DNA from: Escherichia phage mio
Sequence record: MN850631.1
Reading direction: 5' to 3' (one strand)
Length of the DNA stretch: 64,000 bases
Shown here: positions 3,660 through 62,259 of the stretch, piece by piece
How positions within the stretch are numbered: position 1 is the stretch's first letter
Layout: the number at the start of each line of letters is the position of its first letter
The notes under the pieces: generated by a model
Told to the model about the DNA's origin: nothing
What the model saw: the letters and a program-made list of their open reading frames with translations, nothing else
Database searches by the model: none
Program-made: the position numbers and the translations under genes

Positions 3660-5804
3660 TTACATAGAGACTCTATCACGAATCTCAGCAATTTTTGCAT
3701 CGTTCATTCGGGATTCGCCTTTAATCTTAGTCCATCCAAGATACCCGCACACCCTGTTAATCACAGAGATATCGTGTGAATGACAAACCTCACATTCTTC
3801 AACATCAGCCTTTGGCCTGTTACCACAATGTTCACAGATTGCTAAGTCAAAGTTAAGTCCCTGATAGAAACCTTTCAACATCCCTCTTGTAATACAACTT
3901 TTAAGTGCTGTTAAGTTTTCTGGGTTAGCTACCCTGACATACTGGATTCTCCCACCTCTACAGATATGGAAGAATGGCTCTTCTAAGTCCTGCTTCTCAA
4001 ATGGTGAGATGTCTGCTGCAACATTCATATGGAAACTGTTTGTAAAGTATTCCTTATCAGAAACACCTTTGATAACACCAAACATATCTCTGAACTGTTT
4101 TAGCTGAGTTCCGCAAAGTGATTCTGCTGGAGTACCATAGACGGCGTATAAGAAGCCATCTTCATTTTTAAACTCTTCAGTTTTCATGTTGATGTATGCC
4201 AGAACATCGTATGCAAAACTACAGCTTCCAACTTCATGAAGTCGTTTACCTTCAGCAAGAACAGATAGCTCATCGAGCGCAGTAACACCAAAAGAAGCTG
4301 TGAAGGACTTCACGATATCCCAGCCAACCTTGTCAGTAGGTTTCTTAGTTCCTTTGTACAGACCACCTTGTGTGAATGCAAGAGGGTTAGAACTTGCTGG
4401 CATATTAGCAATCATTTCGTAGCGTTTCTTGTGGAAGCTGCGAATCATCTCTAGGTACTTATCAAGCTCTTTCCAGAAATCTAAACCATTCTCTTTAGAA
4501 TACTGGTAAATCATCGGTAAGTTCAAAGATACAGCACCAATATTAGCACGACCAACGTAGAACTCTTCTCCATTCTCGTTAAGATATGGGGATAAGAAAG
4601 CTCTGCAACCCATCGGTGAAATTACCTTGCCAGAACGCTCAAAAGCCTCTGCTACAGCACCATGACCAGATACGCTTAAGAAATCTGGATACATTGCTTT
4701 AGAGCAACACTCAATAGCTTTACTGTACAGGTGACCTTGACAGATATTTTCATCATGTCTCTTCTGGTCGTAGATATAAACAAGTTTAGGGAATACAACA
4801 GGTTTTTTGCTCTTACCTTGTCCATTCATACGAACATCTAGGAGAGTACTTGCAATCATGTATTGTAGTCGGTTGTCTTCATTAGACATATCTGAGTCAA
4901 GTAAACCAAATGTTAAAGTTGTGAATGCAAAATCACCACGGCTGCAAGGTACAGTATTTAGCTTCATCTCTAGTGACTGGAAGCCTTGAGTTAATTCAAT
5001 CTGTAGCTGCTCCATGACATAGTTATGGTAATGTTCTTTAGGAATACCATAAGATGCTGCTTTCTCAGCATGATAGCGTAGAGACTTCTTAGCATACGGT
5101 ACGAGTACCTTGTCAATCTCTGCTAAAGTAAAGCCACCAAATTGCTGTGCAGTTGCTGAAAGAACTACGTCACCAATAACCTGTAAGGCCGACAGTACAG
5201 ATTTTGGTTCACAATATTCGATGCCAGACATTTCAAAGCCACCTTTCAGGACTTTACCAATGTCAAACAGGCAACAGTTGATACCACCAAAAATTAGGTC
5301 TCTTAAGTCATGGATGTAGATAAACCCTTTTTCAATGTCTTCAAGTTCCTCTGGTGTTAAATGGTACTGTTTAAAGATTTCTTTAGTCAGATAACCACGA
5401 ATAATTGAACCTTTTGTAGAAATTAAACTGCTGTCAAAGTTAGCATTTTCACGGTCACCTAAGAAGAGTGTGTCTTTAGTCTTTTGGTAAAGCTCATCCC
5501 AATTTTGAGCAACCTCTTTACGGTAATTTCTGTATGTTGAGTAAGACTCATAAATCTCGTGATTAACTTCTGCCAAAGCACCCTCAACAATACTGTGAAT
5601 ATCATTTACTGAAATGAGTAAATTATTCTGCTTAGTGGATTTTACCAGAATCCTCATAAATGCTGACTCAAGAGCTTGGGTAACATCTGGTGGAAGTTCT
5701 TTATATCCAACCCTGTTAGCTGATTTAGTTACTGCTGCTAAAACTTTTTTGATATCAGGTTCTTCAAGTGAGCCGTTCTTTTTAATAATCTGTACTTTGT
5801 TCAT
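3660..5804 (-). CDS. nrdD: anaerobic ribonucleoside-triphosphate reductase (class III, glycyl radical)
   Basis: 714 aa; C-terminal Zn/Cys cluster CEHCGN...CEVCHSHD followed by glycyl-radical motif RVCGYLG. Confidence 0.85.
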   Translation of the reverse strand: MNKVQIIKKNGSLEEPDIKKVLAAVTKSANRVGYKELPPDVTQALESAFMRILVKSTKQNNLLISVNDIHSIVEGALAEVNHEIYESYSTYRNYRKEVAQNWDELYQKTKDTLFLGDRENANFDSSLISTKGSIIRGYLTKEIFKQYHLTPEELEDIEKGFIYIHDLRDLIFGGINCCLFDIGKVLKGGFEMSGIEYCEPKSVLSALQVIGDVVLSATAQQFGGFTLAEIDKVLVPYAKKSLRYHAEKAASYGIPKEHYHNYVMEQLQIELTQGFQSLEMKLNTVPCSRGDFAFTTLTFGLLDSDMSNEDNRLQYMIASTLLDVRMNGQGKSKKPVVFPKLVYIYDQKRHDENICQGHLYSKAIECCSKAMYPDFLSVSGHGAVAEAFERSGKVISPMGCRAFLSPYLNENGEEFYVGRANIGAVSLNLPMIYQYSKENGLDFWKELDKYLEMIRSFHKKRYEMIANMPASSNPLAFTQGGLYKGTKKPTDKVGWDIVKSFTASFGVTALDELSVLAEGKRLHEVGSCSFAYDVLAYINMKTEEFKNEDGFLYAVYGTPAESLCGTQLKQFRDMFGVIKGVSDKEYFTNSFHMNVAADISPFEKQDLEEPFFHICRGGRIQYVRVANPENLTALKSCITRGMLKGFYQGLNFDLAICEHCGNRPKADVEECEVCHSHDISVINRVCGYLGWTKIKGESRMNDAKIAEIRDRVSM

Positions 5805-18930: not shown

Positions 18931-18989
18931 TTGCTTTTTATAATTTTTTGCAGTAATGTATGAGGTTAATGATTTTAGAGGGAGTAAAA

Positions 18990-21689
18990 ATGGAAAACGT
19001 AGATTTTAAAAACTTACATTTGGTTGGTGATACAGAAACTGATGGTTTACTCCTTGAGTTCACTAAAGTTCACGTAATGGCCTTTGCAGACTATAAATCT
19101 GACGATGAAGAGCCACCTGTATGGGTCTTTACAGATGAGCCTATCCTCGGTCACAAGTACACTAAGTACATTAAGGGTGGCTTACGAGAAGGTATTGAGT
19201 TTGCGTTAAAGGCAAAACGTCTTTGCATCCATAATGGTCTCGGTTATGACTGGTGGGTTTTCAATCACATTGCACCTGATTTATGGAACTTTGATAATCC
19301 AAAGTGTAAACCGTGGAGTAATTTCTTTCAGGACTCTCTTATCCAGTCTCGTGTTCAGTGGATGGATAGACCAACTCCAAAGGGTTATAAAGGTGCTCAT
19401 GGCTTGGCTGCATGGGGTGCTCGTGTTGGTGTTCGTAAGCCAGAGATTGAGCATTGGGGTGTGTGGAATGCAGAAATCTTCACTCGTGTTGTAGAGGATA
19501 TCCGTATTAACGCCAAAACTAAACGGGCACTTGATAATGAGTATCTCAAGCTTAAGAAGTGTGGCATAGACACTTATGAAACCTATATGCGAGCCAAAGA
19601 GACATCTTTCTGGATGAGCCAGCAAGCTATTAATGGTTGGAAAGCTGATAAAGAGCTTATGGAGTTCCATGTAAAGGAACTTGACAAGTTGACTAATGAG
19701 CTTGCTTCAGAGGTTGAACCACATCTGCCTCCAACTATTAAGACTAAAGGTAAAGTTACTGGAGAAGAGTTTGCAAAAGCTTGGAATGAGTATGTTGAAA
19801 CATTTGGTCATGCAGATGGACTGAAGAGAATTACCAAGTACCCTAAGACAAAGTACCGTCAGCAGGTACGTAATGGTGAGATGCAGACATATGAAATCAA
19901 ACCATTTGGTAAGCCAACTACAAAGATTTTTAACATTGAAAAGAGAAATTGCTATACACCAACCAACACTGTAACTGGTGAAGAGTACAAGGAAGGCTTT
20001 GTAGCAATGAAGGATGCTCGTGCAATTTGCAATGAGTTGAACGCAAAGATTGGTAAGAAATGCAAAGACTGGAAGCCAGTAAAAACAGTCAAAACTGTGA
20101 AGTACTATAACAGTCATGTTGTTAACCACTTTGAACTTGAGTCAAGTCGCTACACAGGTTTGATTGATGCACCATATACACCAATTGAGTTCGAAGTTTC
20201 TCGTATGACTCAGGTAGCAGTTGTTAAAGACTACTTGAAATCAGTTGGTTGGATTCCAGATGACTGGAACTATAAGAAAGACTCTGATGGTCGCCCTGTC
20301 AAAGTTTGTCGTTTCAAAGACAATAAAAAGATGATTACAAAACATCCTAAGTGGCAGGAAATGGTTGAGCGGTGTGGTTTGAGCTATGTTGAACATGAAG
20401 GTGTCCAGTACATTGAGCATAACTGGTCTGTGAAGAAATACACAGATTTGCTTGAGCCTTGCTTAATCCGTACTTCACCAAAACTTACTGAATCATCTTA
20501 TGATACGATTGAAGGTGAACTTGGACAGAAGATTGCTAAGTACTACACTTTGATGCACCGACGCAGAACTATTGAGAACTCAAAGGATGATGAAAAAGGT
20601 TGGTTGAACCAGATTCGCCCTGATGGTCGCCTTAGTGCTGGCGCAATGGTGTTTGGTACTTCAACTGGACGTATGACACAATATGGTATTGTAAACGTAC
20701 CGTCTGGTGCTGCTGTCTATGGAGAACCAATGAGGGCAGTGTGGATTTGTGAGGAAGGTACTAACGTTGTCTCTGTAGATATGAACTCAGCCCAGCTAGT
20801 TCTTCTTTGTAACTTTATGGGTGATAAAGACTTCACCAAAGCGGTAACGCAAGGTAAAGAAGAGATTGAGTTTATTCGTCAAGAAGATGGACGCTATTAC
20901 TGCAAACATTTTGATGAGTACCTAAACCCAGAGATTGATAAGTACCTTCGCTATGACTCTGAGAATGACCTGTACGTTGTCTATTCAGGGACTGATGCAC
21001 ATACACTTAACAGTGTTTACTTTAGCTTGAATGATGAGCAGGATATCTTGACTTGTCGAGCTACTCAGGATGAGAATCTTCTTCATGAGATTAGCAAAGG
21101 TCGTAAGAAAGCTAAGAATGGTATCTATGCACTACTGTTCGGTGCAGGTGATGAGAAGTTTGCTAAGACGATTAAAGCTGCGACTACTCAGGAAGGTGCG
21201 CTGACTAAACAGACTTACTTTATACGTTTGCCTAAAATTAAGAAGCTGTTAGATGACTTGGAAGCTGACTACAAAGCAACTAAAAAGGCGCTTGAAGAGG
21301 TGTTTGGTAAGACTGCTGCAATCTCTAAAGGGGGTTTTGTAAAGGTTGCTGGAGCTTGGTTGTGGTGTAAATCTCCACATAAGTTATTGAATTATTTGCT
21401 CATGGGTTCGGAAAGTCAGATTCAGAACGAGGCAATTAACCTTGCTTGCCGTCGTATGATTGACGAAGGTTTGATGAAGTTGAATGGTCGCAAACCAGCT
21501 ATAGGTGCTCGTTTATTGTGCTCCTATCACGACGAGACGAGTTGGGAATGCCCAGAAAGTATGACGGCAGAGGTGAAGGCTGTCACTGATTGGTATTACG
21601 GGCAAGCTTCTAAGAACTTAGGTCTTAAGAAAGAAACACTTGTTACAGGTACTGGTAAGGTTGGCAAAAGCTGGTATGAGGTACACTAA
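18990..21689 (+). CDS. DNA polymerase, family A with N-terminal 3'-5' exonuclease
   Basis: ORF 18960..21689; start placed at ATG 18990 because of strong RBS GAGGGAG 8 nt upstream; Exo I motif LVGDTETDGL near N-terminus; about 900 aa. Confidence 0.8.
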   Translation: MENVDFKNLHLVGDTETDGLLLEFTKVHVMAFADYKSDDEEPPVWVFTDEPILGHKYTKYIKGGLREGIEFALKAKRLCIHNGLGYDWWVFNHIAPDLWNFDNPKCKPWSNFFQDSLIQSRVQWMDRPTPKGYKGAHGLAAWGARVGVRKPEIEHWGVWNAEIFTRVVEDIRINAKTKRALDNEYLKLKKCGIDTYETYMRAKETSFWMSQQAINGWKADKELMEFHVKELDKLTNELASEVEPHLPPTIKTKGKVTGEEFAKAWNEYVETFGHADGLKRITKYPKTKYRQQVRNGEMQTYEIKPFGKPTTKIFNIEKRNCYTPTNTVTGEEYKEGFVAMKDARAICNELNAKIGKKCKDWKPVKTVKTVKYYNSHVVNHFELESSRYTGLIDAPYTPIEFEVSRMTQVAVVKDYLKSVGWIPDDWNYKKDSDGRPVKVCRFKDNKKMITKHPKWQEMVERCGLSYVEHEGVQYIEHNWSVKKYTDLLEPCLIRTSPKLTESSYDTIEGELGQKIAKYYTLMHRRRTIENSKDDEKGWLNQIRPDGRLSAGAMVFGTSTGRMTQYGIVNVPSGAAVYGEPMRAVWICEEGTNVVSVDMNSAQLVLLCNFMGDKDFTKAVTQGKEEIEFIRQEDGRYYCKHFDEYLNPEIDKYLRYDSENDLYVVYSGTDAHTLNSVYFSLNDEQDILTCRATQDENLLHEISKGRKKAKNGIYALLFGAGDEKFAKTIKAATTQEGALTKQTYFIRLPKIKKLLDDLEADYKATKKALEEVFGKTAAISKGGFVKVAGAWLWCKSPHKLLNYLLMGSESQIQNEAINLACRRMIDEGLMKLNGRKPAIGARLLCSYHDETSWECPESMTAEVKAVTDWYYGQASKNLGLKKETLVTGTGKVGKSWYEVH

Positions 21690-21750
21690 TTAGTATTGAC
21701 AAGGTGCTCAGGGAAGAGTACCTTATACTATATCTTGTATAGGAGGTCAC

Positions 21751-21960
21751 ATGACGCTTTCGGAGATTGAAGTTCAGTTGCAATGTGCAGGTTATTCTCA
21801 AAAGGAGATTGAAGACATGCTTATTGTTATTTGCAGTGGTTATAGAGTAAACCCTGAAGCTCTGCGTATAGCAGATATCTTTATTGCTGGAGGGAAAATC
21901 GCAAAAGATAAGACAGGATATTTGAAAGGTGAGCGTGTAGACATCGAGAATTTGCTATGA
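21751..21960 (+). CDS. small hypothetical protein, paralog of 22163..22381
   Basis: 69 aa; C-terminal GKIAKDKTGYLKGERVDIENLL matches GKIARDHTGVLKGERIDILELL of the downstream gene. Confidence 0.45.
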   Translation: MTLSEIEVQLQCAGYSQKEIEDMLIVICSGYRVNPEALRIADIFIAGGKIAKDKTGYLKGERVDIENLL

Positions 21961-22166
21961 GCCACCGTGGAAGAACCCATGCAGCGATGATGAAAGGTGC
22001 TTCAAAGGAAACTATCAAGAACCGTAAGCAGAAGTTGTTTGAGAGAATGAACAGGTTAATTGACAATTCATCTCTTTCAGGTTCTGAGAAGGTTTTCTTG
22101 AAAGGTAATCTAAAAAGCATTGCACAAGAACTTGTAGATATTGAATATTGGAGACATCAAAAATGA
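21957..22166 (+). CDS. hypothetical protein
   Basis: 69-aa ORF between the two paralogs, overlapping stop/start. Confidence 0.35.
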   Translation: MSHRGRTHAAMMKGASKETIKNRKQKLFERMNRLIDNSSLSGSEKVFLKGNLKSIAQELVDIEYWRHQK

Positions 22167-22381
22167 CACTTGCAGACGTTATTCAGCAACTTCATGATAA
22201 CTGCTACACTCCAGAGTTAATTCAGGAGATGTCCATTGTAGTCATGCCTAGCAAGTTCTTAAAAGGTTTTAATCGTGAGGCTTTAAAGGTCGCGCATATC
22301 CTTATCGTTGACGGTAAGATTGCAAGAGACCATACAGGTGTTCTTAAGGGTGAACGTATTGATATCTTGGAATTGCTATGA
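22163..22381 (+). CDS. small hypothetical protein, paralog of 21751..21960
   Basis: ORF 22148..22381, start moved to ATG 22163 (RBS GGAGA upstream); shares C-terminal motif with 21751..21960. Confidence 0.45.
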   Translation: MTLADVIQQLHDNCYTPELIQEMSIVVMPSKFLKGFNREALKVAHILIVDGKIARDHTGVLKGERIDILELL

Positions 22382-22538
22382 ATAAGTTATATAGTCTCTG
22401 GGGAAGGATGGGTAAAGACTCTGACTGGAATCTGCTCAAAACAAATGTAAAAAGTAATGAGATAGCGTACTACAAAATTCATTACTACAAAACTTTCAGA
22501 GAGCTTGAGTATCGTGAACAACAGACAGGAGAAGTATT

Positions 22539-22775
22539 ATGTGGAAATCAGTAATTGTGCTTGGTGTTATTTTTCTATCTGGCTGCAACCCTTCTTATGA
22601 AGATAAAAATGCTTCTTACAGCCTCCCACCAGAGATGCAAGATTGCAGAGTATACAAGTTACATGGTGATGCTATAAGTAGGGATATTGTTGTGGTCAGA
22701 TGTCCAAACTCTCAAACAACGACATCTTACAGCTATGGCAAAAATGGACAATCACATACTACGGTTATTGAGTGA
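22539..22775 (+). CDS. putative lipoprotein
   Basis: 78 aa; signal peptide MWKSVIVLGVIFLSGC with lipobox L-S-G-C. Confidence 0.5.
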   Translation: MWKSVIVLGVIFLSGCNPSYEDKNASYSLPPEMQDCRVYKLHGDAISRDIVVVRCPNSQTTTSYSYGKNGQSHTTVIE

Positions 22776-22785
22776 GGTTTTCACG

Positions 22786-22992
22786 ATGGAAGTCCTAGTA
22801 AACTATATCTACTGTTATGATGTTATTCACTCCACTACAACCGTAGCTCAACGTAACCCAATCGTCCCACGAGAAGGTGAGTTTGTTCGCATTGATGGTT
22901 GTACTTACACTGTGGAAAGCATCATTCATAAGTTTGATGTTGCTGGCGATGTTCAAGTTATCGACGTAGAGATTGGTGGTAAGAGAAAATGA
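22786..22992 (+). CDS. hypothetical protein
   Basis: ORF 22687..22992 trimmed to internal ATG with GAGG RBS. Confidence 0.3.
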   Translation: MEVLVNYIYCYDVIHSTTTVAQRNPIVPREGEFVRIDGCTYTVESIIHKFDVAGDVQVIDVEIGGKRK

Positions 22993-23207
22993 CTGTAGAA
23001 GATAAATTTAAGAACGCAGTTCTTACAGAAGATGGTGAGCTTGAAACATTCATTCTTCGTGTTGATGGTAAGCTATTCCGGTGTCGTTGTGGGTCAAACT
23101 GTTTTCATAAACCAGATAAAAATGATTTAGAGCTTTACGCATGTAATGCTTGCAATACTTGGTATCACTCAGAGGTGAAAAATGACAACACTATACAAAC
23201 AAAATAA
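22989..23207 (+). CDS. hypothetical Cys-rich (zinc-ribbon-like) protein
   Basis: 72 aa with CRCGSNC...CNAC arrangement. Confidence 0.35.
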   Translation: MTVEDKFKNAVLTEDGELETFILRVDGKLFRCRCGSNCFHKPDKNDLELYACNACNTWYHSEVKNDNTIQTK

Positions 23208-24282
23208 AGATGGCTCTTTCAACGTCTGGTCATGTGTTGCTGTAGGTGACAAAGTTATTACAACCTACGGTAAAGAAAATGGCAAGATGATGTTTGAAGA
23301 GTATACAGCAGAACCTAAAAACATCGGTAAAAAGAATGAGCGTAACGCTGAACAGCAAGCTCTCTTTGAAGTTGCTGCTAAGTATAAAAAGCAAGTCGAC
23401 CGTAAGGGTTACGCTTACACAAAAGAGTCTGCACAGAATACTGAGAAGGTAGGTGTACAGCTTGCTCATGATGCTGCAAAGGTTAGCCATGCAAAGTATC
23501 TGAAGTTCCCTGCTGATGCTCAACCAAAACTTGATGGTGTCCGTTGTAGAATTTCAAGAGATGCTGATTCAGTCAGTTTCACAGCTTATTCTCGTGAGAA
23601 TACTGTTTACAACGTTCCAACAGAACTAATCCCAGATTTGCTTTTGTTGCTTAAATTACATCCACAAGTTGAAGACTTTGACGGAGAGATTTATGCTCAT
23701 GGTTGGGACTTAGAAGATATTGTATCTATGATTAAGAATGCTGACAATCCAGACCGTCACCTTCTTAAATTCTACTGGTATGATATCTGTGACAATTCAA
23801 AATCTTGGCCTGAGCGTCGTGAAGTTATTGATAACTCACCTATTGTCGAGCTTGGTGATACCTGTAGGGTGGTTCCTGTACAGACTATCCGTGTTAACTC
23901 TTGGGGAGAGTTTGATGAAGCTCATGATAAGTGGGTTGAAGCTAAGTTTGAAGGTGCAATGTACCGCTCAATCTCTGAAGAATCTTTCTACGAGTGTGGT
24001 CACCGTTCATACTTCTTGATTAAGCACAAGAAGATGCACACTGAAGAGTTTAAAGTAACTGGTGTAAAGACTGATAAACGTGGTCATGGTAAGTTCGTCG
24101 TAGAGACTCTTCCTAACGTCTTTGTAGATGTCTCATGGAAGACTACTCATGAGAAGAAACAGTATCTTGCTGAACACCCTGAAGAGTTTATCGGTAAACC
24201 TTTAACGGTTCAGTTCCAGAAGATGACTCGCAAGGGGTCTTTACAGTTCCCTGTCGGGCTAGTTATTAGGGATTATGAGTAA
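23182..24282 (+). CDS. ATP-dependent DNA ligase
   Basis: 366 aa; nucleotidyltransferase motif I KLDGVR (adenylylated lysine). Confidence 0.7.
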   Translation: MTTLYKQNKDGSFNVWSCVAVGDKVITTYGKENGKMMFEEYTAEPKNIGKKNERNAEQQALFEVAAKYKKQVDRKGYAYTKESAQNTEKVGVQLAHDAAKVSHAKYLKFPADAQPKLDGVRCRISRDADSVSFTAYSRENTVYNVPTELIPDLLLLLKLHPQVEDFDGEIYAHGWDLEDIVSMIKNADNPDRHLLKFYWYDICDNSKSWPERREVIDNSPIVELGDTCRVVPVQTIRVNSWGEFDEAHDKWVEAKFEGAMYRSISEESFYECGHRSYFLIKHKKMHTEEFKVTGVKTDKRGHGKFVVETLPNVFVDVSWKTTHEKKQYLAEHPEEFIGKPLTVQFQKMTRKGSLQFPVGLVIRDYE

Positions 24283-24285
24283 ACT

Positions 24286-24432
24286 ATGTTAAGTACAACC
24301 ATTCTGTTTGCATTAGTTGTCTTTGTGTTGTCTTACATCACAAGTAAACTTTTGAACACATCCTTTGCAATGGGTGTTTTGTTCACAATCTTTTGTTTTG
24401 TAACACATATAGCTATCAGGACTTTTATATAA
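24286..24432 (+). CDS. small hydrophobic protein (unlisted short ORF)
   Basis: 48-aa ORF MLSTTILFALVVFVLSYITSKLL... read by eye, below the ORF-track length cutoff. Confidence 0.25.
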   Translation: MLSTTILFALVVFVLSYITSKLLNTSFAMGVLFTIFCFVTHIAIRTFI

Positions 24433-24715: not shown

Positions 24716-25099
24716 ATGAAAAAGATTTTATTAGCTACTGCAATGGTTATGGCAATGAACTTACCAGTCAATGCAACAGAACTCCCAAATGTGGACTTAT
24801 CAGGTGTTCCAGAAGACACTTGCCAGATTGTGAAAGGTGTTGCTTTATCTAATGGTGAGTTACTTAAACCAATCTCTGAAGAGTCTTTGACAGAGATGAC
24901 TGATAAGGTGACTGACTACCAGTATCGTGTTCTTGCAGAGTATTTCCTACAATCTGCAAATATTAAAGAGAAACACCATGATGATATTGATGTACAGGCT
25001 ATGCTCAATCATCGTATCCAGTTTAAAGAAGATTTGATGCAAAAAGCTATGTATGGTGTTGAGTATTTCTTAGAAAACAGAAGCTGCACAGGTATTTGA
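24716..25099 (+). CDS. secreted/periplasmic hypothetical protein
   Basis: 127 aa; N-terminal signal peptide MKKILLATAMVMAMNLPVNA. Confidence 0.45.
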   Translation: MKKILLATAMVMAMNLPVNATELPNVDLSGVPEDTCQIVKGVALSNGELLKPISEESLTEMTDKVTDYQYRVLAEYFLQSANIKEKHHDDIDVQAMLNHRIQFKEDLMQKAMYGVEYFLENRSCTGI

Positions 25100-28238: not shown

Positions 28239-28610
28239 TTATTTTTCAGTATTCTTTGTGTTCTTCTCAGTAATAGCTTGGAGGGCTGATACTGATTGAG
28301 CCAGATTGTTCACACTGTCAGAGAATTTATCAAGAGTTTTCGTCAGTTTTGCATTCTCACCCTTAACATTCTCTAACTGAACTTTCTGGTTCTCCATCCC
28401 TAACTGAATAAGTCTCATGTCAGACTGTAAATCACGAATAGCTGAATAGTTACTACTTGTGTAATTATCTAGCTGCTGTAACTTTGTTTTGACAGACACT
28501 TCTTGCTTACCACTTGAAACTTGCATAGTGGTATACATCCCAATAACACTAAAAATACCAACAACAATTGCACCAATATTATTTTTAAAAGCTTCCTCTA
28601 GCCACTTCAT
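28239..28610 (-). CDS. membrane-anchored coiled-coil protein
   Basis: 123 aa; N-terminal TM (IGAIVVGIFSVIGMY) then coiled-coil. Confidence 0.4.
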   Translation of the reverse strand: MKWLEEAFKNNIGAIVVGIFSVIGMYTTMQVSSGKQEVSVKTKLQQLDNYTSSNYSAIRDLQSDMRLIQLGMENQKVQLENVKGENAKLTKTLDKFSDSVNNLAQSVSALQAITEKNTKNTEK

Positions 28611-28884: not shown

Positions 28885-31233
28885 TTAAGCAGTTCTCACC
28901 CAAGCCATTAACTTATAGAACTGGTTAGTTACACTAAATGCTGAACCAGAACCTGTACTTCCAGTGTTACCACTCACTGTATGGCTGTGAGCACCAATAC
29001 CAACACTGTGAGCATGGTTACCATTTGATGCAGCAGTACCACTTACTGAGTGTGAGTGATTCCCAGCACTACCCGTTTGTACGGTATTCCTGTTACCATC
29101 AGAATCCCAATCACCCCTTGTACCACTTGGTTGCGCACCAGTAGTATAACCATGTGTATGGGCACCTGTTGTGTTCGTTGAACCACTCACTGAGTGGGTG
29201 TGAGCACCAGTAGTGTTAGTGGTTTTTGTTCCGTAGTCAAAAGATGAAGTAGTAGCAGAAAAACTGTGTGTGTGTGATGGTAAGTTACCAACAGCTAACG
29301 TCACAGAATCTGAACCACCAGTTGTAGCAACATCTGAACCATTTGCTGCTGCAATTCTGATAGTTCTACCAACACCATTATTCAGGTACGTCCAAGTTAG
29401 ACCAGGCAGTGCTGTATTAGGGTTAACATTACTGTTAAACCACGTTACAATACCTACTGGATAGATTTTATTAAGGTCTGTAGAGTCACTTACTGCCTGT
29501 GCAATCTTCTGGTCAGTCTCAGTTTTAGTGTATGCACCGATGTCTGAAGGGGATGGTTTATCTTGGTCTGTATAGATTTTAGCCCAAGTATTCTCAAATC
29601 CATACCCATCTCTCGCTGACCTATACCAAAAACCACCATTCCTATAGTTAAATTTTAATTGAGCAGATGGTGTAGAGCTACCACCCTGATACATATGGTA
29701 GACTAGTTGTGTTGAACCACCAGATTCCCCTGTAACATTATACAGACCAGTTCTAGCAGTCCAAGCGATACCATCACCATCACCTACCTCTGTACCAGTG
29801 CCAGAAGAGTAAGCAAACATATACCTAGAGTTTGCGTCAGATTTCGTATAATATCTAGCATCTAAGTTAGACCAATCTGAAGGTTGAACCTGTCCAGTGA
29901 TTGCTAAAGTTGCATTCATTTCAAATGCTGAACCGATGGTAAGACCTTTACCTGTTTTGTAGTTAAACAGCCTTAAGTTGTTATTGTTATCAGCATCACC
30001 ATTACCAACATACCACTTAGCTGTCCCATCAGCAGATAACCCTCTAATGAACAATGTCGTTGCAGTTTTTGCTTTTAACGCAAGAGCTTCACCATCAGAG
30101 TTGATAACTTGTCGTACAGAAAATGTATTGACAACATTAGTTCTTGCAATCGTACTTAATGTTGCTGCCGGAATATATCTAGAGTCAATGTTAGTCCAAT
30201 CTGAAGGTTGAACTTGACCAGTTACAGTTAGTGTTTTATTGATATTAACACTTGTCCCTACAGTAATTTTGCCACCAGTTTTGTAGTTTTCTAGAGCTAC
30301 GTTATCACCTTCATTACTATTACCAATGTACCATCTGTTGACACCTGCGCTATCAATCGCTTTAATGTACAATGGCTGTGCAGCATTGGCATTCTGTAGC
30401 CTAATTGCCTCACCATCTTTTTTGAAAATACTTAGTTGGTTAAACGTGTTAGTGCCAGTGAAATTATTATTAGCAGCTAACTGTGCAAATCTCTGATTAG
30501 CTACTGTCTGAGTAAAGTATCTAGCATCTAAGTTGGAGAAGTCAGAAGGTTGAACTTGACCAGTAATAGCAAGGGTTTTATTAATAGCAACACTTGTGCC
30601 TAGAGTAATGGTTGAACCTTGTTCACTCTCAATTTGAACATCTCGGCTGCCTTTAATTAGGTTCCCGATAGCCCAAACTTTTTCACTACTAGCATCCCTA
30701 GCTACAACAGCAGTGTATGCCTCACTAGCACTTGCAGGGTTTCTTAGTGTTAGAATCTCCCCATTTGCTGTAATAGTCTGCTTGACGTTAAACGTGTTTG
30801 AGTTAGCCAACCTTGCATACCTTGCATCATTCTCTTCATTAGTTCTCATCCCAAGTTCATTAGGGCTTGGCTTATTCAAAGTATGGTAAACAGTTGCTGA
30901 CCTTGAAGCATCTGCAATAGTTAGTTTAAGGCCATTTGCGTTGATTTTAAAAGCCTTTAAAACATCCCCCATAGTAATCTCAGAAGAGCCTGTAGGGTCA
31001 AACACTGCCTTACCACCATAAAGTAACTTGACAATTCCTAAGTCACCAGTCATAGTGCTGCCAGCAATCTGAACAAATCTTTCAAGCTTAAAAGATGCTA
31101 AGAAGTCTTGATAGGTCATTCGACGGTCTTCATCACCCAGCATTTCAGGTCTCTTTTTAACTCTGACATGGAGAAGGTCGTCTGAACGAATTGTGTCGAT
31201 TGAGTTTAACTGACTCAATTTGTAATCTGCCAT
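28885..31233 (-). CDS. tail fibre protein with triplicated internal domain and His-rich tip
   Basis: 782 aa; three copies of ...TGQVQPSD(F/W)(S/T)N(L/I)D(A/S)RY...; C-terminal HxH-rich segment (HTHSVSG, HSHSVSG, HAHSVG) shared with the neighbouring fibre. Confidence 0.7.
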   Translation of the reverse strand: MADYKLSQLNSIDTIRSDDLLHVRVKKRPEMLGDEDRRMTYQDFLASFKLERFVQIAGSTMTGDLGIVKLLYGGKAVFDPTGSSEITMGDVLKAFKINANGLKLTIADASRSATVYHTLNKPSPNELGMRTNEENDARYARLANSNTFNVKQTITANGEILTLRNPASASEAYTAVVARDASSEKVWAIGNLIKGSRDVQIESEQGSTITLGTSVAINKTLAITGQVQPSDFSNLDARYFTQTVANQRFAQLAANNNFTGTNTFNQLSIFKKDGEAIRLQNANAAQPLYIKAIDSAGVNRWYIGNSNEGDNVALENYKTGGKITVGTSVNINKTLTVTGQVQPSDWTNIDSRYIPAATLSTIARTNVVNTFSVRQVINSDGEALALKAKTATTLFIRGLSADGTAKWYVGNGDADNNNNLRLFNYKTGKGLTIGSAFEMNATLAITGQVQPSDWSNLDARYYTKSDANSRYMFAYSSGTGTEVGDGDGIAWTARTGLYNVTGESGGSTQLVYHMYQGGSSTPSAQLKFNYRNGGFWYRSARDGYGFENTWAKIYTDQDKPSPSDIGAYTKTETDQKIAQAVSDSTDLNKIYPVGIVTWFNSNVNPNTALPGLTWTYLNNGVGRTIRIAAANGSDVATTGGSDSVTLAVGNLPSHTHSFSATTSSFDYGTKTTNTTGAHTHSVSGSTNTTGAHTHGYTTGAQPSGTRGDWDSDGNRNTVQTGSAGNHSHSVSGTAASNGNHAHSVGIGAHSHTVSGNTGSTGSGSAFSVTNQFYKLMAWVRTA
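29008..29243. repeat. tail-fibre tip repeat, copy 1 (about 90% identical to 31463-31697)
   Basis: Long runs of identical nucleotides shared with the second fibre gene. Confidence 0.7.
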
Positions 31234-31279
31234 TATAAGTTTTCCTCTTAAAAGGGGCTATAAAGCCCCTGTAAAGAAA

Positions 31280-32446
31280 TTAAGCTGTTCTCTGCCATAC
31301 ATACAGAACAAAGGATGGTTGTTCAACACTGAATGCTTGTCCAGAACCTGTAGAACCAGTTGTACCAGAATGTGAGTGCTCTGTTGTTGAAATACTCACA
31401 CTACCACTGTGAGTGTGTGAACCAATATTAGTTACATGGGTGTGTGAACCAATATTTAAAGTGTGAGCATGGTTACCATTTGATGCAGCAGTACCACTTA
31501 CTGAGTGTGAGTGATTCCCAGCACTATCCGTTTGTACGGTATTTCTGTGACCATCTCTGTCCCAATCTCCAGATGCACCTGTTGATTGATAACCAGTAAT
31601 ATAACCATGCGTATGAGCACCAGTAGTGTTCGTTGAGCCACTCACTGAGTGGGTGTGAGCACCAGTAGTGTTAGTGGTTTTAGTTCCGTAGTCAAAGCTA
31701 GAGGTTGTCTTAGTCCCATAATCAAAGGAACTAATAGACATTGTTGCTCCATGTGTGTGACCACCACCAGTGACGTATACTGAGTGAGTATGTGCAGGGA
31801 TGTTGTTAACTGTCAGTGCAGTAGTTTGCGAACCAAACGTTGAACCAACTGGCCTAGAAGCACTATCATAACCCACGAGTGCTCTTCCTTTTGAAACTAA
31901 CTCCCAAGTACCTCCACAAATTAAATATGTAGAGGGGTTTGCAGGATTCATAGAGAGATGGATAGTACCTACTGGATAAGAAGCCTGAACAGCCTTGTAC
32001 AAGTTATTTACTGCTCTTGCTGTAGCGTACTTATCTGCATCTTCATTATAAAGATTAGATGTTGTCCAGTTCTGGACATTACTCAAACCAACCTGTGCTT
32101 TAGTTGTATTGTGTGGGTTACTCTTATCATTAATATGTTGTTGAACAAGGTTATTAACCTCTTCTGAAGACATAATCTGTAGATTTGCTCTTGCCTCAGC
32201 TACATTAGTAACGTCTGATAAGTTGTTTTCAGCAACTAACTGGAGAGCATTAATAACATTATCTAAACCAATTTGTGTCTTAGTAACACCATGAGGGTTA
32301 TTTCTCAGGCTTGAGTGTGGAGCAAGTAGTTGCTCAAGAGTGCATCTCTTATCCTCAATACCCTGCTTAAGATGGAAGATATCACTAAGGTCAATTGGTA
32401 AGGCTGCTTGAGGCAAGGCACTAATTTGAATTTCACCTACTGCCAT
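31280..32446 (-). CDS. tail fibre protein 2 (shares C-terminal His-rich tip with 28885..31233)
   Basis: 388 aa; C-terminal TTGAHTHSVSGSTNTTGAHTHGY...NHSHSVSGTAASNGNHAH nearly identical to fibre 1. Confidence 0.65.
   Translation of the reverse strand: MAVGEIQISALPQAALPIDLSDIFHLKQGIEDKRCTLEQLLAPHSSLRNNPHGVTKTQIGLDNVINALQLVAENNLSDVTNVAEARANLQIMSSEEVNNLVQQHINDKSNPHNTTKAQVGLSNVQNWTTSNLYNEDADKYATARAVNNLYKAVQASYPVGTIHLSMNPANPSTYLICGGTWELVSKGRALVGYDSASRPVGSTFGSQTTALTVNNIPAHTHSVYVTGGGHTHGATMSISSFDYGTKTTSSFDYGTKTTNTTGAHTHSVSGSTNTTGAHTHGYITGYQSTGASGDWDRDGHRNTVQTDSAGNHSHSVSGTAASNGNHAHTLNIGSHTHVTNIGSHTHSGSVSISTTEHSHSGTTGSTGSGQAFSVEQPSFVLYVWQRTA
31463..31697. repeat. tail-fibre tip repeat, copy 2
   Basis: See copy 1 at 29008-29243. 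Confidence 0.7.
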
Positions 32447-60910: not shown

Positions 60911-61795
60911 ATGATTAAAGCAAAGACTTACCCAGACTTCAAAGAGTTTGTGAAGGGCTTCATTGCAAACGTAAAAGCTGGTAAGAGATATGATTTTAGA
61001 ACATATCAAGAGGCTATTTTACCACTCACCTATAGTTCGTATTGGCCTGAAGCTGATATTGCAGAAGTTGAGGAGTTTGACTACAAACCAGACTACAAAG
61101 TTCCATTTAGTGATGATTTGCTTTACAGCGTTGGTGCTCAAATGAGAACTTCTGACTTCTTCATGGACTTACAATATGCAATTATCAATGGTAAAGACGT
61201 TGACACAGTGTATTGTGAATGGTTGGCAAGAGTTAAGCCGTTCTCAATGTTGAATGCTAAGCTGAAGGATGCTATTAAGCCACCAGCAATTACTCAGCAA
61301 CCAACAGGCCAAACAGTCAATGAGGGTGGCACACTTACTTTAAGTGTTCTAGCAACTAACGCCACTGGATATCAGTGGAAGAAGGATGGTGAGGACATCC
61401 ACAGTGCCACTTCTGCAACTTACACAAAACAATCCGTAGCACCTTCTGACGCTGGTTCATACACTTGTGTTGTATCTGGAGAGGGTGGAACAAGTGTCAC
61501 CTCAGATGCAGCAACGGTTACTGTTAACGCACTGCCTGTGATTACACAGCAACCTTCTAGCCAGACCATTAATGAAGGTGGAAACATCAGTCTATCAGTG
61601 ACTGCAACAGGTGCAACAGGTTATCAGTGGAAGAAGGGTGAAGAAGTCATCCCAGACGCAACTGCTGCAACTTACACCAAAGAAGGTGCAACCGCTGCTG
61701 ATGCAGGAAGCTACACCTGTGTAGTGACTGGCGCAGGTGGCTCTGTAACATCTAATGCGGCAACAGTTACAGTTAACCCAGCAGAGGAGGCATAA
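60911..61795 (+). CDS. protein with two tandem Ig-like (Big/I-set-type) domains
   Basis: 294 aa; two about 90-aa repeats ITQQP(T/S)(G/S)QT(V/I)NEGG...ATGYQWKK...A(T/S)YTK...DAGSYTCVV...AATVTVN. Confidence 0.45.
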   Translation: MIKAKTYPDFKEFVKGFIANVKAGKRYDFRTYQEAILPLTYSSYWPEADIAEVEEFDYKPDYKVPFSDDLLYSVGAQMRTSDFFMDLQYAIINGKDVDTVYCEWLARVKPFSMLNAKLKDAIKPPAITQQPTGQTVNEGGTLTLSVLATNATGYQWKKDGEDIHSATSATYTKQSVAPSDAGSYTCVVSGEGGTSVTSDAATVTVNALPVITQQPSSQTINEGGNISLSVTATGATGYQWKKGEEVIPDATAATYTKEGATAADAGSYTCVVTGAGGSVTSNAATVTVNPAEEA

Positions 61796-62259
61796 TGCAA
61801 CTCTCAAGAAAAGGTTTAGAAGCTATTAAGTTCTTTGAAGGTCTTAAGCTGGAGGCTTACGAAGATTCTGCCGGAATCCCAACAATCGGGTATGGTACAA
61901 TCCGTATTGACGGGAAACCTGTTAAGATGGGTATGAAAATCACGGCTGAACAAGCTGAACAGTATCTTCTCGCAGATATTGAAAAGTTCGTTGCAGCAGT
62001 GAACAAATCCATCAAGGTTCCAACTTCTCAGAACGAGTTTGATGCACTTGTAAGTGAAACATACAACATTGGCATCACAGCTATGCAGGATTCTACATTT
62101 ATCAAGCGACATAATGCTGGTGACAAGGTAGGTTGTGCAGAAGCTATGCAGTGGTGGAACAAGGTTACAGTCAAAGGTAAGAAGGTCACTTCAAACGGCC
62201 TGAAAAACAGACGTAGAATGGAAGCTGACATTTATCTTGACAGTGTATATCCAAAGTAA
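61795..62259 (+). CDS. endolysin, T4-lysozyme-like (GH24) muramidase
   Basis: 154 aa; N-terminal LEAIKFFEGLKLEAYEDSAGIPTIGYGT matching the catalytic E...D...T region of phage lysozymes. Confidence 0.65.
   Translation: MQLSRKGLEAIKFFEGLKLEAYEDSAGIPTIGYGTIRIDGKPVKMGMKITAEQAEQYLLADIEKFVAAVNKSIKVPTSQNEFDALVSETYNIGITAMQDSTFIKRHNAGDKVGCAEAMQWWNKVTVKGKKVTSNGLKNRRRMEADIYLDSVYPK

What the first reader, a model, noticed from the sequence alone, without database searches (positions are those of the whole stretch)
22539..22775. Small early-region lipoprotein: candidate superinfection-exclusion / receptor-masking factor
A 78-aa product with a textbook lipoprotein signal peptide and lipobox (FLSGC) is encoded among early plus-strand genes. 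Small phage lipoproteins of this size (for example T5 Llp) block the phage's own receptor after infection.
Basis: partly seen in the sequence, partly recalled or inferred. Interest (0 to 1): 0.45.

Follow-up and report, generated by a model that had tools for sequence, protein, structure and literature searches.

The report
Conserved phage lipoprotein, function unknown
This is a real, well-conserved small lipoprotein gene of a Felix O1-like phage, but it belongs to a large uncharacterised phage family (DUF4884 / phrog_902) rather than to the T5 Llp receptor-blocking family, so its role in the infected cell's envelope is still open.

Summary
Window 22539..22775 (+) encodes a 78-aa protein with a Shine-Dalgarno site, a canonical lipoprotein signal peptide and the lipobox L-S-G-C (Cys16). 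It is the only credible lipobox ORF in the 64-kb window and is under purifying selection (median dN/dS 0.105).

The window is a Felixounavirus, and the gene is the ortholog of Felix O1 ORF91, in the block between DNA polymerase and DNA ligase.

The Llp-like reading is mostly not supported:
- There is no sequence or fold similarity to T5 Llp, Cor or any solved structure.
- The gene is not next to a receptor-binding protein gene.
- Felixounaviruses bind LPS, not a protein receptor.
- The T1-like phage Henu8 carries a distant family member as well as a Cor gene and a spanin gene.

The protein belongs to a large family (phrog_902; DUF4884 on homologs; 1,216 representatives at 50% identity). The family is found almost only in virulent phages of Gram-negative hosts, always as a stand-alone gene. 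It shares three invariant cysteines and the motifs LPxGLxDC and VVRCPNSxTxTxYxxGK.

Best reading: a membrane-tethered, disulfide-stapled periplasmic beta domain that binds a conserved envelope component, possibly for receptor-independent exclusion. The function is inferred, not shown.

The parts
22527..22531 (+). Shine-Dalgarno sequence AGGAG, 7 nt upstream of the start codon
   Evidence: Read from the sequence.
22539..22775 (+). Coding sequence of the 78-aa prolipoprotein (stop codon included); ortholog of Felix O1 ORF91 (Felix01p170) and Moogle gp40
   Evidence: phrog_902 E=2.1e-16; median dN/dS 0.105.
22539..22583 (+). Signal peptide, residues 1-15, ending in lipobox L-S-G before Cys16 (predicted signal peptidase II cleavage between G15 and C16)
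   Evidence: Sequence; lipobox conserved in 186 of 192 homologs; residues 3-13 modelled as a helix.
22584..22586 (+). Codon TGC for Cys16, the predicted lipid-attachment residue. It is followed by Asn17-Pro18 (no Asp at +2), so outer-membrane sorting is expected under the E. coli Lol rule
   Evidence: Invariant column in alignments A1, A2 and A4. The sorting rule is established knowledge, not tested here.
22584..22772 (+). Mature lipoprotein, 63 aa, 7.06 kDa, pI 6.1, GRAVY -0.79 (hydrophilic)
22617..22742 (+). Conserved family core, residues 27-68: Y-x-LPxxMxDC-x-V-Y-x-L, a variable hairpin tip, then VVRCPNSQTTTSYSYGK
   Evidence: Alignments A2 and A4. Nearly invariant: P30, D35, V52, P56, S58, T60, G67, K68.
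22644..22646 (+). Codon for Cys36, first of the invariant Cys pair
   Evidence: Invariant; sits just before modelled strand 37-42.
22701..22703 (+). Codon for Cys55, second of the invariant Cys pair. A C36-C55 disulfide closing the beta hairpin is inferred
   Evidence: Invariant; sits just after modelled strand 50-54. Cys-Cys spacing is 16-18 residues in 164 of the 181 homologs with the C...C[PQ] motif.
21696..21701 (+). TTGACA, a -35-like hexamer just after the polymerase stop; possible promoter for the small-gene block that contains the lipoprotein gene (uncertain)
   Evidence: Sequence. The equivalent site is annotated as a promoter in phage AYO145A. The spacing to the TATACT at 21724-21729 is 22 nt, which is not canonical.

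Best explanation
The gene encodes a prolipoprotein of the uncharacterised phage family catalogued as phrog_902 and, on its homologs, Pfam DUF4884. Inferred pathway: the precursor is exported by Sec, lipidated on Cys16 and cleaved by signal peptidase II. [quoted passage not shown] In the periplasm, Cys36 and Cys55 form a disulfide that staples a beta hairpin. The result is a small, very polar beta domain of about 45 residues, held roughly 12 residues from the membrane. The gene is transcribed with the replication genes, so the protein probably appears soon after infection. The nearly invariant surface (LPxxLxDC, VRCPNSxT, GK) is conserved across phages of different host orders and tail types. 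Its partner is therefore most likely a broadly conserved envelope component, or a generic feature of incoming phages, and not this phage's receptor. My preferred function is receptor-independent protection of the infected cell's envelope: exclusion of later phages after adsorption, or protection against lysis from without. That resembles the logic of T4 Sp/Imm more than that of T5 Llp. Shown here: the gene, the lipobox, family membership, the Cys pattern, purifying selection and the genomic context. Inferred: sorting, the disulfide, expression timing, the target and the function.
For: Real, constrained gene with SD and lipobox. Family membership: phrog_902 E=2.1e-16; homologs 58-96% identical carry PF16225/DUF4884; 1,216 representatives at E<=0.001. 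Three invariant cysteines and conserved motifs. Model with pLDDT 70.8 shows strands 37-42 and 50-54 bracketed by C36 and C55. Periplasmic tethering is the conserved feature, not the membrane: the +2 residue varies (E 41, D 31, N 30, S 24 ...). E. coli, Serratia and Erwinia jumbo-phage members have Asp at +2 and one member has a TM anchor in place of a lipobox (L048). The family is in virulent phages of several lineages (Ounavirinae, Vequintavirinae, jumbo Asteriusvirus-type phage fEgEco12 and Eneladusvirus, Vibrio Demerecviridae, Acinetobacter Saclayvirus; Aeromonas Aeh1 and phiAS5 by fold match), always among small genes. No neighbouring gene is conserved over 27 loci. Only 1 locus was found among 185,579 species genomes. 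The family is distinct from both known phage lipoprotein roles: Henu8 has Cor, a spanin gene and a distant member of this family, and Ounavirinae have their own spanin pair.
Against: No experiment or literature bears on the function. No partner has been identified. The structural model is only moderate and has no informative fold match. Expression timing is inferred from position only. My own Pfam scan did not return PF16225 for the window protein or for any of 36 members, which disagrees with the precomputed labels. Henu8 gp06 is a weak match to the family profile (22.8 bits), so the coexistence argument rests on a distant member. The genome scan used one narrow peptide pattern, so bacterial copies are under-counted; a Bacteroides DUF4884 protein, BT_3183, is mentioned in PMC8931616. 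Nothing separates exclusion from other envelope functions.
Confidence: 0.4

Rival explanations
1. Llp/Cor/Rtp45-type receptor masking: the lipoprotein binds the periplasmic face of the phage's outer-membrane receptor and changes its surface loops so that further virions cannot bind.
For: Similar size (63 vs 61 mature residues), beta-rich, a single internal disulfide, predicted outer-membrane lipoprotein (bioRxiv 10.64898/2026.03.26.714494). One homolog in GenBank is labelled 'lytic conversion lipoprotein'. Rtp45 shows that such proteins can also act on LptDE, the LPS exporter, by adding a strand to a beta sheet (PMC12685063), and this domain has polar Thr/Ser-rich strands.
Against: No sequence or fold similarity. 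Not adjacent to an RBP gene. Felixounaviruses use LPS, not a protein receptor. The binding motifs are conserved across phages with different receptors. Some E. coli-phage members have Asp at +2 and one member has a TM anchor, which would hold the domain at the inner membrane. Henu8 has a separate Cor gene. The disulfide topology differs: a hairpin staple about 18 residues apart, against C11-C58 in Llp.
Confidence: 0.1
2. Host envelope takeover unrelated to exclusion: the domain inhibits or redirects a conserved periplasmic host factor (for example a peptidoglycan hydrolase, a protease or an envelope-stress sensor) or an envelope-located defence system, to keep the cell intact and productive.
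For: Conservation across host orders and tail types, the stand-alone mobile gene, restriction to virulent phages and variable membrane anchoring all fit a diffusible or widespread host target. Other exported or membrane miniproteins lie in the same gene block.
Against: No similarity to known periplasmic inhibitor families or to defence or anti-defence models. No candidate target. This rival cannot be separated from the preferred explanation with the present data.
Confidence: 0.3
3. Lysis component: an o-spanin or other lipoprotein accessory to lysis.
For: It is a small outer-membrane-type lipoprotein with cysteines, like Rz1-type o-spanins. In phage 4MG the upstream gene is annotated 'Rz-like spanin'.
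Against: The flanking ORFs in the window have no transmembrane segment. The 4MG neighbour is an 81-aa protein without a coiled coil. Ounavirinae have a separate overlapped i-/o-spanin pair next to rIIB (Moogle gp122/gp121; PMC8300805). Henu8 has its own spanin gene as well. The mature protein is not proline-rich (4 of 63). The gene is in the replication block, about 6 kb from the putative holin and about 39 kb from the endolysin.
Confidence: 0.05

Closest known systems
DUF4884 (Pfam PF16225) / PHROG phrog_902, an uncharacterised lipoprotein family
   Same: Direct profile match to phrog_902 (E=2.1e-16). Close and distant homologs carry precomputed PF16225 hits. Shared features are the lipobox, three invariant cysteines and the LPxGLxDC / VVRCPNSxTxTxYxxGK motifs.
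   Different: Nothing that sets it apart from the family. The Felixounavirus version is a short form that ends before the I-D-G-x-x-Y-x-K tail seen in many members. No function is known for the family.
T5 Llp (lytic conversion lipoprotein) and Cor superinfection-exclusion lipoproteins
   Same: A small lipoprotein of a virulent phage, about 60 mature residues, beta-rich, with one internal disulfide and a periplasmic location.
   Different: No detectable homology or fold similarity. Not linked to an RBP gene. The phage has an LPS receptor. Different disulfide topology. The family is conserved across phages with different receptors and coexists with Cor in Henu8.
Rtp45, the LptDE-binding exclusion lipoprotein of phage Rtp
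   Same: A lipoprotein of about 6 kDa acting from the periplasmic side, binding partly by adding a strand to a beta sheet (PMC12685063). It concerns the LPS export machine, which is of interest for an LPS-binding phage.
   Different: Not among the PDB sequence matches at E<=10. SE lipoproteins of LptD-targeting phages such as Rtp are identified directly downstream of the gpJ tail-tip locus, beside the RBP gene (PMC9586334). No evidence here for LptDE binding.
T4 Sp (spackle) and Imm, early exclusion proteins acting after adsorption
   Same: The logic only: early-region, stand-alone envelope proteins of a virulent myovirus, not linked to tail-fibre genes, acting on penetration or DNA entry rather than on the receptor. 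This comparison rests on established knowledge of T4, not on a test here.
   Different: Sp is a soluble periplasmic protein and Imm an inner-membrane protein; neither is a lipoprotein. The window protein and the family profile had no PDB sequence match beyond signal peptides. The function here is untested.
o-spanins (Rz1 type)
   Same: A small outer-membrane lipoprotein with periplasmic cysteines.
   Different: No partner i-spanin gene nearby, not proline-rich, and the phage group has a separate spanin pair.

Membership tests
DUF4884 / phrog_902 | Significant match to the family profile | tested here: met
   phrog_902 E=2.1e-16, residues 1-76. A family HMM built here scores the window protein at 95.9 bits, though that sequence was in the training alignment.
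DUF4884 / phrog_902 | Match to Pfam PF16225 itself | tested here: inconclusive
   Precomputed PF16225 hits on homologs 58-96% identical and on distant members, unmarked, meaning E<=1e-5. My own hmmscan of the window protein and of 36 members returned no PF16225 hit even at E<=10. The library copy may lack or filter that model.
DUF4884 / phrog_902 | Lipobox plus two further cysteines 16-18 residues apart, and the VRCPNSxT / GK motifs | tested here: met
   C16, C36 and C55 are invariant; P56, S58, T60, G67 and K68 are at least 90% conserved. Lipobox in 186 of 192; exactly two extra Cys in 164 of 186.
T5 Llp / Cor exclusion lipoproteins | Sequence homology to Llp or Cor | tested here: not met
   BLASTP vs T5 Llp E=0.066, signal peptide only. 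Profile vs 8a60_B E=3.3, residues 1-18. Henu8 Cor scores 14 bits, signal peptide only.
T5 Llp / Cor exclusion lipoproteins | Gene adjacent to the receptor-binding protein gene | tested here: not met
   The gene lies between polymerase and ligase. The tail-fibre gene is at about 28888-31531 on the opposite strand. The same holds in the other phages examined.
T5 Llp / Cor exclusion lipoproteins | Lipoprotein signal peptide with outer-membrane sorting | tested here: met
   Lipobox L-S-G-C with Asn at +2. Sorting is predicted from the E. coli +2 rule, not measured.
T5 Llp / Cor exclusion lipoproteins | Fold of Llp (four strands, short helix, C11-C58 disulfide joining the termini) | tested here: not met
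   No significant match in PDB or BFVD, and no Llp among the rows shown. The Cys pair here is 18 residues apart and brackets one hairpin. The model is only moderate (pLDDT 70.8).
T5 Llp / Cor exclusion lipoproteins | The phage uses an outer-membrane protein receptor that the lipoprotein can bind | tested here: not met
   From the literature, Felixounavirus host recognition depends on LPS and not on protein receptors (PMC8594841). Not tested for this isolate.
T5 Llp / Cor exclusion lipoproteins | Expression blocks adsorption of the cognate phage | not testable with these tools
   Needs an expression and adsorption experiment.
o-spanin (Rz1 type) | Gene embedded in, overlapping or next to an i-spanin gene (N-terminal TM plus coiled coil) | tested here: not met
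   Neighbouring ORFs 22378..22554 and 22786..22992 have no TM segment. The true pair in Ounavirinae lies next to rIIB.
o-spanin (Rz1 type) | Short, proline-rich mature lipoprotein | tested here: not met
   4 Pro in 63 residues; predicted beta-sheet domain.

The most novel reading that the evidence does not exclude
DUF4884 proteins are a third functional class of phage lipoproteins, beside spanins and receptor-masking Llp/Cor/Rtp45 proteins. On this reading they are a horizontally mobile, receptor-independent periplasmic effector. Its invariant disulfide-stapled surface would bind one conserved machine of the Gram-negative envelope (for example LPS export, peptidoglycan remodelling or a trans-envelope complex). 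That would give many unrelated virulent phages a common way to close or stabilise the envelope of the infected cell.
Probability: 0.35. Interest if true: 0.65.

Novelty: new member of a known kind. Interest (0 to 1): 0.4.

Why it matters
Felix O1-like phages are used in Salmonella diagnostics and biocontrol, and most of their early genes have no known role. This gene is one copy of a very widespread, strongly conserved, exported protein family of virulent phages whose target is unknown. The same binding surface is kept in phages of Escherichia, Salmonella, Vibrio, Aeromonas and Acinetobacter. Finding its partner could therefore reveal a general weak point of the Gram-negative envelope that phages exploit, or a general exclusion mechanism relevant to designing phage cocktails. 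The work also corrects a tempting mis-annotation: one GenBank homolog already carries the name 'lytic conversion lipoprotein' without support.

Tried and rejected
- Pfam, NCBIfam and PADLOC scans of the protein and family members gave nothing beyond signal-peptide-level hits.
- PDB sequence searches with the single protein and with a profile matched signal peptides only.
- The first AlphaFold run, with 36 sequences, was poor (pLDDT 60). The second, with 148 sequences, reached 70.8.
- A conserved-neighbour analysis over 27 loci found no partner gene.
- Longer family members have no informative domain fusions.
- The genome-contig scan failed with the broad alignment. With a trimmed core it used one narrow pattern and found one bacterial locus.
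- Phage pSf-1 was examined as a possible T1-like carrier but lacks the family. Henu8 was then confirmed instead.
- The consensus tblastn did not reach T1-like phages.
- Literature searches for functional or expression data on the family or on Felix O1 early genes found nothing relevant.
- The o-spanin idea was rejected.
- A second lipobox ORF inside the holin gene was rejected as chance.

Full report
**What is there**

An AGGAG lies 7 nt upstream, and the start overlaps the preceding small ORF by 16 nt, which suggests coupled translation. The N-terminus (MWK-SVIVLGVIF-LSG-C) is a textbook lipoprotein signal peptide with lipobox L-S-G-C and Cys16 as the lipidated residue.

A six-frame scan of every possible start in the window found only this ORF as a credible lipobox ORF. 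The single other hit is a 35-aa ORF with no SD inside the holin gene. It is broken by stop codons in phage Moogle, so it is chance. The mature protein has 63 residues, 7.06 kDa, pI 6.1, and is strongly hydrophilic.

**Genome and context**

The window is a Felix O1-like myovirus (genus Felixounavirus). The 4-kb neighbourhood is 90-96% identical to many such phages.

The gene lies in a co-directional block. DNA polymerase (18960..21689) comes first, then four small ORFs, the lipoprotein gene, two more small ORFs, and DNA ligase (23182..24282). Felix O1 has the ortholog in the same place (Felix01p170 / ORF91), as does Citrobacter phage Moogle (gp40, 'hypothetical protein').

A TTGACA hexamer follows the polymerase stop, and the equivalent site is annotated as a promoter in phage AYO145A. 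The spacing to the best -10-like hexamer is not canonical, and I found no expression data. 'Early' is therefore an inference from position.

Among 22 unique Ounavirinae orthologs the median pairwise dN/dS is 0.105 over 205 pairs, so the gene is real and constrained. By eye (sequences), the variation lies mainly in the hydrophobic part of the signal peptide, the hairpin tip and the C-terminal tail.

**The family**

- The protein matches phrog_902 (unknown function, E=2.1e-16).
- tblastn finds it in about 200 Felixounavirus-like records at 60% identity or more. At 27-43% identity it also appears in unrelated virulent phages:
  - jumbo phages of Serratia, Erwinia and Yersinia (Eneladusvirus);
  - E. 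coli jumbo phages such as fEgEco12;
  - Seunavirus 4MG;
  - Acinetobacter Saclayvirus and the 164-kb Acinetobacter phage Acj61;
  - Vibrio phages of 111-114 kb (JSF10 is classified in Demerecviridae, and D415 has a T5-like replication gene set).
- Aeromonas phages Aeh1 and phiAS5 are picked up as well, by fold match to the model.
- A profile search of 1.84 billion cluster representatives gave 1,216 hits at E<=0.001 and 656 at E<=1e-10.
- Homologs carry precomputed Pfam PF16225 = DUF4884. My own Pfam scans did not return this model, and I cannot resolve that discrepancy.
- A scan of one genome from each of 185,579 bacterial and archaeal species, with the core pattern VVRCPNSxT[ST], found a single locus, in Hylemonella next to a regulator gene and other island-like genes. 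The family is therefore mainly viral, although the pattern was narrow and a Bacteroides DUF4884 protein is mentioned in the literature.

**Family signature**

- In a 148-sequence alignment three cysteines are invariant (C16, C36, C55).
- P30, P56, S58, T60, G67 and K68 are at least 90% conserved.
- The consensus is lipobox-C, about 12 variable polar residues, Y-x-L-P-x-G-L-K-D-C-K-x-Y-x-L, a variable loop, V-V-R-C-P-N-S-x-T-x-T-x-Y-x-x-G-K.
- Of 192 members, 186 pass a strict lipobox test. Of those, 164 have exactly two further cysteines in the mature protein, spaced 16-18 residues apart.
- The residue after the lipid cysteine varies (E 41, D 31, N 30, S 24, T 19, G 13).
- Members from E. coli, Serratia and Erwinia jumbo phages have Asp at +2, the enterobacterial inner-membrane retention signal. 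One metagenomic member has an N-terminal transmembrane anchor instead of a lipobox (L048).

What is conserved, then, is a membrane-tethered periplasmic domain, not a particular membrane.

**Structure**

With the deep alignment AlphaFold gives a moderate model (mean pLDDT 70.8). It has the signal helix, a short strand at 19-22, and a four-stranded meander at 37-42, 50-54, 60-66 and 69-75.

C36 and C55 sit at the open end of the first hairpin. An invariant pair at a fixed spacing in an exported protein points to a disulfide. That is an inference, because I could not read model coordinates.

T5 Llp, Cor proteins and Rtp45 are small periplasmic lipoproteins. They bind the periplasmic side of the phage's own outer-membrane receptor (FhuA or LptDE) and change its surface loops. 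Their genes lie beside the receptor-binding protein gene (PMC9586334; PMC12685063). Llp has a C11-C58 disulfide that joins its termini (bioRxiv 10.64898/2026.03.26.714494).

The present protein shares their size, beta-rich character, single disulfide and lipid anchor, but it fails the tests that define membership:

- There is no homology and no fold match.
- The disulfide topology is different.
- There is no linkage to a tail-fibre gene.
- Felixounaviruses recognise LPS rather than a protein receptor (PMC8594841).
- The binding motifs are conserved across phages with unrelated tails and hosts, whereas receptor-masking proteins diversify with their receptor.
- The T1-like phage Henu8 has three separate lipoprotein genes: a Cor gene next to its tail-tip genes, a spanin gene, and a DUF4884 gene among small genes near the genome start. 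Its DUF4884 protein aligns over its full length with the family profile and keeps the lipobox, the Cys spacing of 17 and T-Y-R-S-G-K. The score is weak, though (22.8 bits).

**Other rivals**

An o-spanin role is unlikely. The neighbouring ORFs have no transmembrane segment and the protein is not proline-rich. Ounavirinae also have a separate overlapped i-/o-spanin pair next to rIIB (Moogle gp122/gp121; PMC8300805). The window holds the putative holin (28242..28610, -) and the endolysin (61795..62256, +), but the Moogle spanin queries found no match in it.

No neighbouring gene is conserved over 27 diverse loci, and longer members carry only I-D-G-x-x-Y-x-K repeats or low-complexity tails. Neither context nor fusions point to a partner.

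**Most likely mechanism**

The precursor is exported and lipidated. [quoted passage not shown] DsbA would then oxidise it to a disulfide-stapled polar beta domain on a short tether.

The same surface is kept in phages of several host orders, and it is sometimes tethered to the inner membrane. Its partner is therefore most likely one of three things: a conserved periplasmic or trans-envelope component, a soluble periplasmic factor, or a generic feature of entering phages.

I favour a receptor-independent protective or exclusion role. That resembles the logic of T4 Sp and Imm, which are also stand-alone early genes. A role in host envelope takeover or anti-defence is nearly as likely. None of this is shown.

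**Novelty and score**

The gene is an ordinary, conserved member of a catalogued but uncharacterised family, so I rate it 'new member of a known kind'. It is of moderate interest. The specific finding is not surprising, but the family is large, strongly constrained, nearly phage-specific and has no assigned function, which makes it a good target for experiment.

Noticed in passing
window 21751..21960 and 22148..22381 (+): Two small ORFs upstream in the same block look like tandem paralogs. They share the C-terminal motif GKIA(K/R)D(K/H)TG(Y/V)LKGER(V/I)DI(E/L)(N/E)LL. The second matches phrog_4230 (unknown function).
   Followed up: no
window 24716..25099 (+) and 24286..24432 (+): Downstream of the ligase gene, a 127-aa ORF has a Sec-type signal peptide (MKKILLATAMVMAMNLPVNA; phrog_4332, unknown function). 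A 48-aa ORF looks like a two-helix membrane miniprotein. The block therefore encodes several envelope-directed products.
   Followed up: partly
window 28469..28576 (-), inside the putative holin gene 28242..28610 (-): A 35-aa out-of-frame ORF with a lipobox (LLGC) but no SD. The same frame in phage Moogle is broken by stop codons, so it is a chance ORF.
   Followed up: yes
window 28242..28610 (-): The protein annotated 'putative holin' in Moogle (89% identical here) has one N-terminal transmembrane helix followed by a long sequence that looks coiled-coil. That is an unusual holin architecture and may deserve a closer look.
   Followed up: no
GenBank records MG065668, MG065664, MG065673, MG065640 and others ('Campylobacter phage A126, A132, A119, A14b ...'): These records are about 94% identical to E. 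coli Felixounavirus or T1-like Hanrivervirus phages, over the lipoprotein (protein level) or the pSf-1 early region (DNA). That suggests mislabelled hosts or contaminating coliphages.
   Followed up: no
L002 (Escherichia phage fEgEco12) 3989..4240 and 4602..4877; L034 3905..4201 and 4198..4524: fEgEco12 annotates two 'lytic conversion lipoproteins' two genes apart. g526 is a DUF4884 member; g528 is a different, Cys-rich lipoprotein. One metagenomic phage contig (L034) carries two tandem DUF4884 paralogs.
   Followed up: partly
L010 3890..4159; L053 2922..3179 (Felix O1 ORF91): The N-terminus of the ortholog varies. In some Felixounaviruses the first codons of the upstream small ORF are fused in frame (MKKMYSLWGSIMWK...). 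Felix O1 is annotated from an upstream GTG (VNNKVKSCVKAMVALGV...). The true start, and so the n-region of the signal peptide, differs or is uncertain between phages.
   Followed up: no
Pfam PF16225 (DUF4884) on P0001-P0054: Precomputed Pfam labels give PF16225 on almost every homolog. A fresh hmmscan of 36 members against the Pfam-A copy returned no PF16225 hit even at E<=10. This is an unexplained difference between the two resources.
   Followed up: partly
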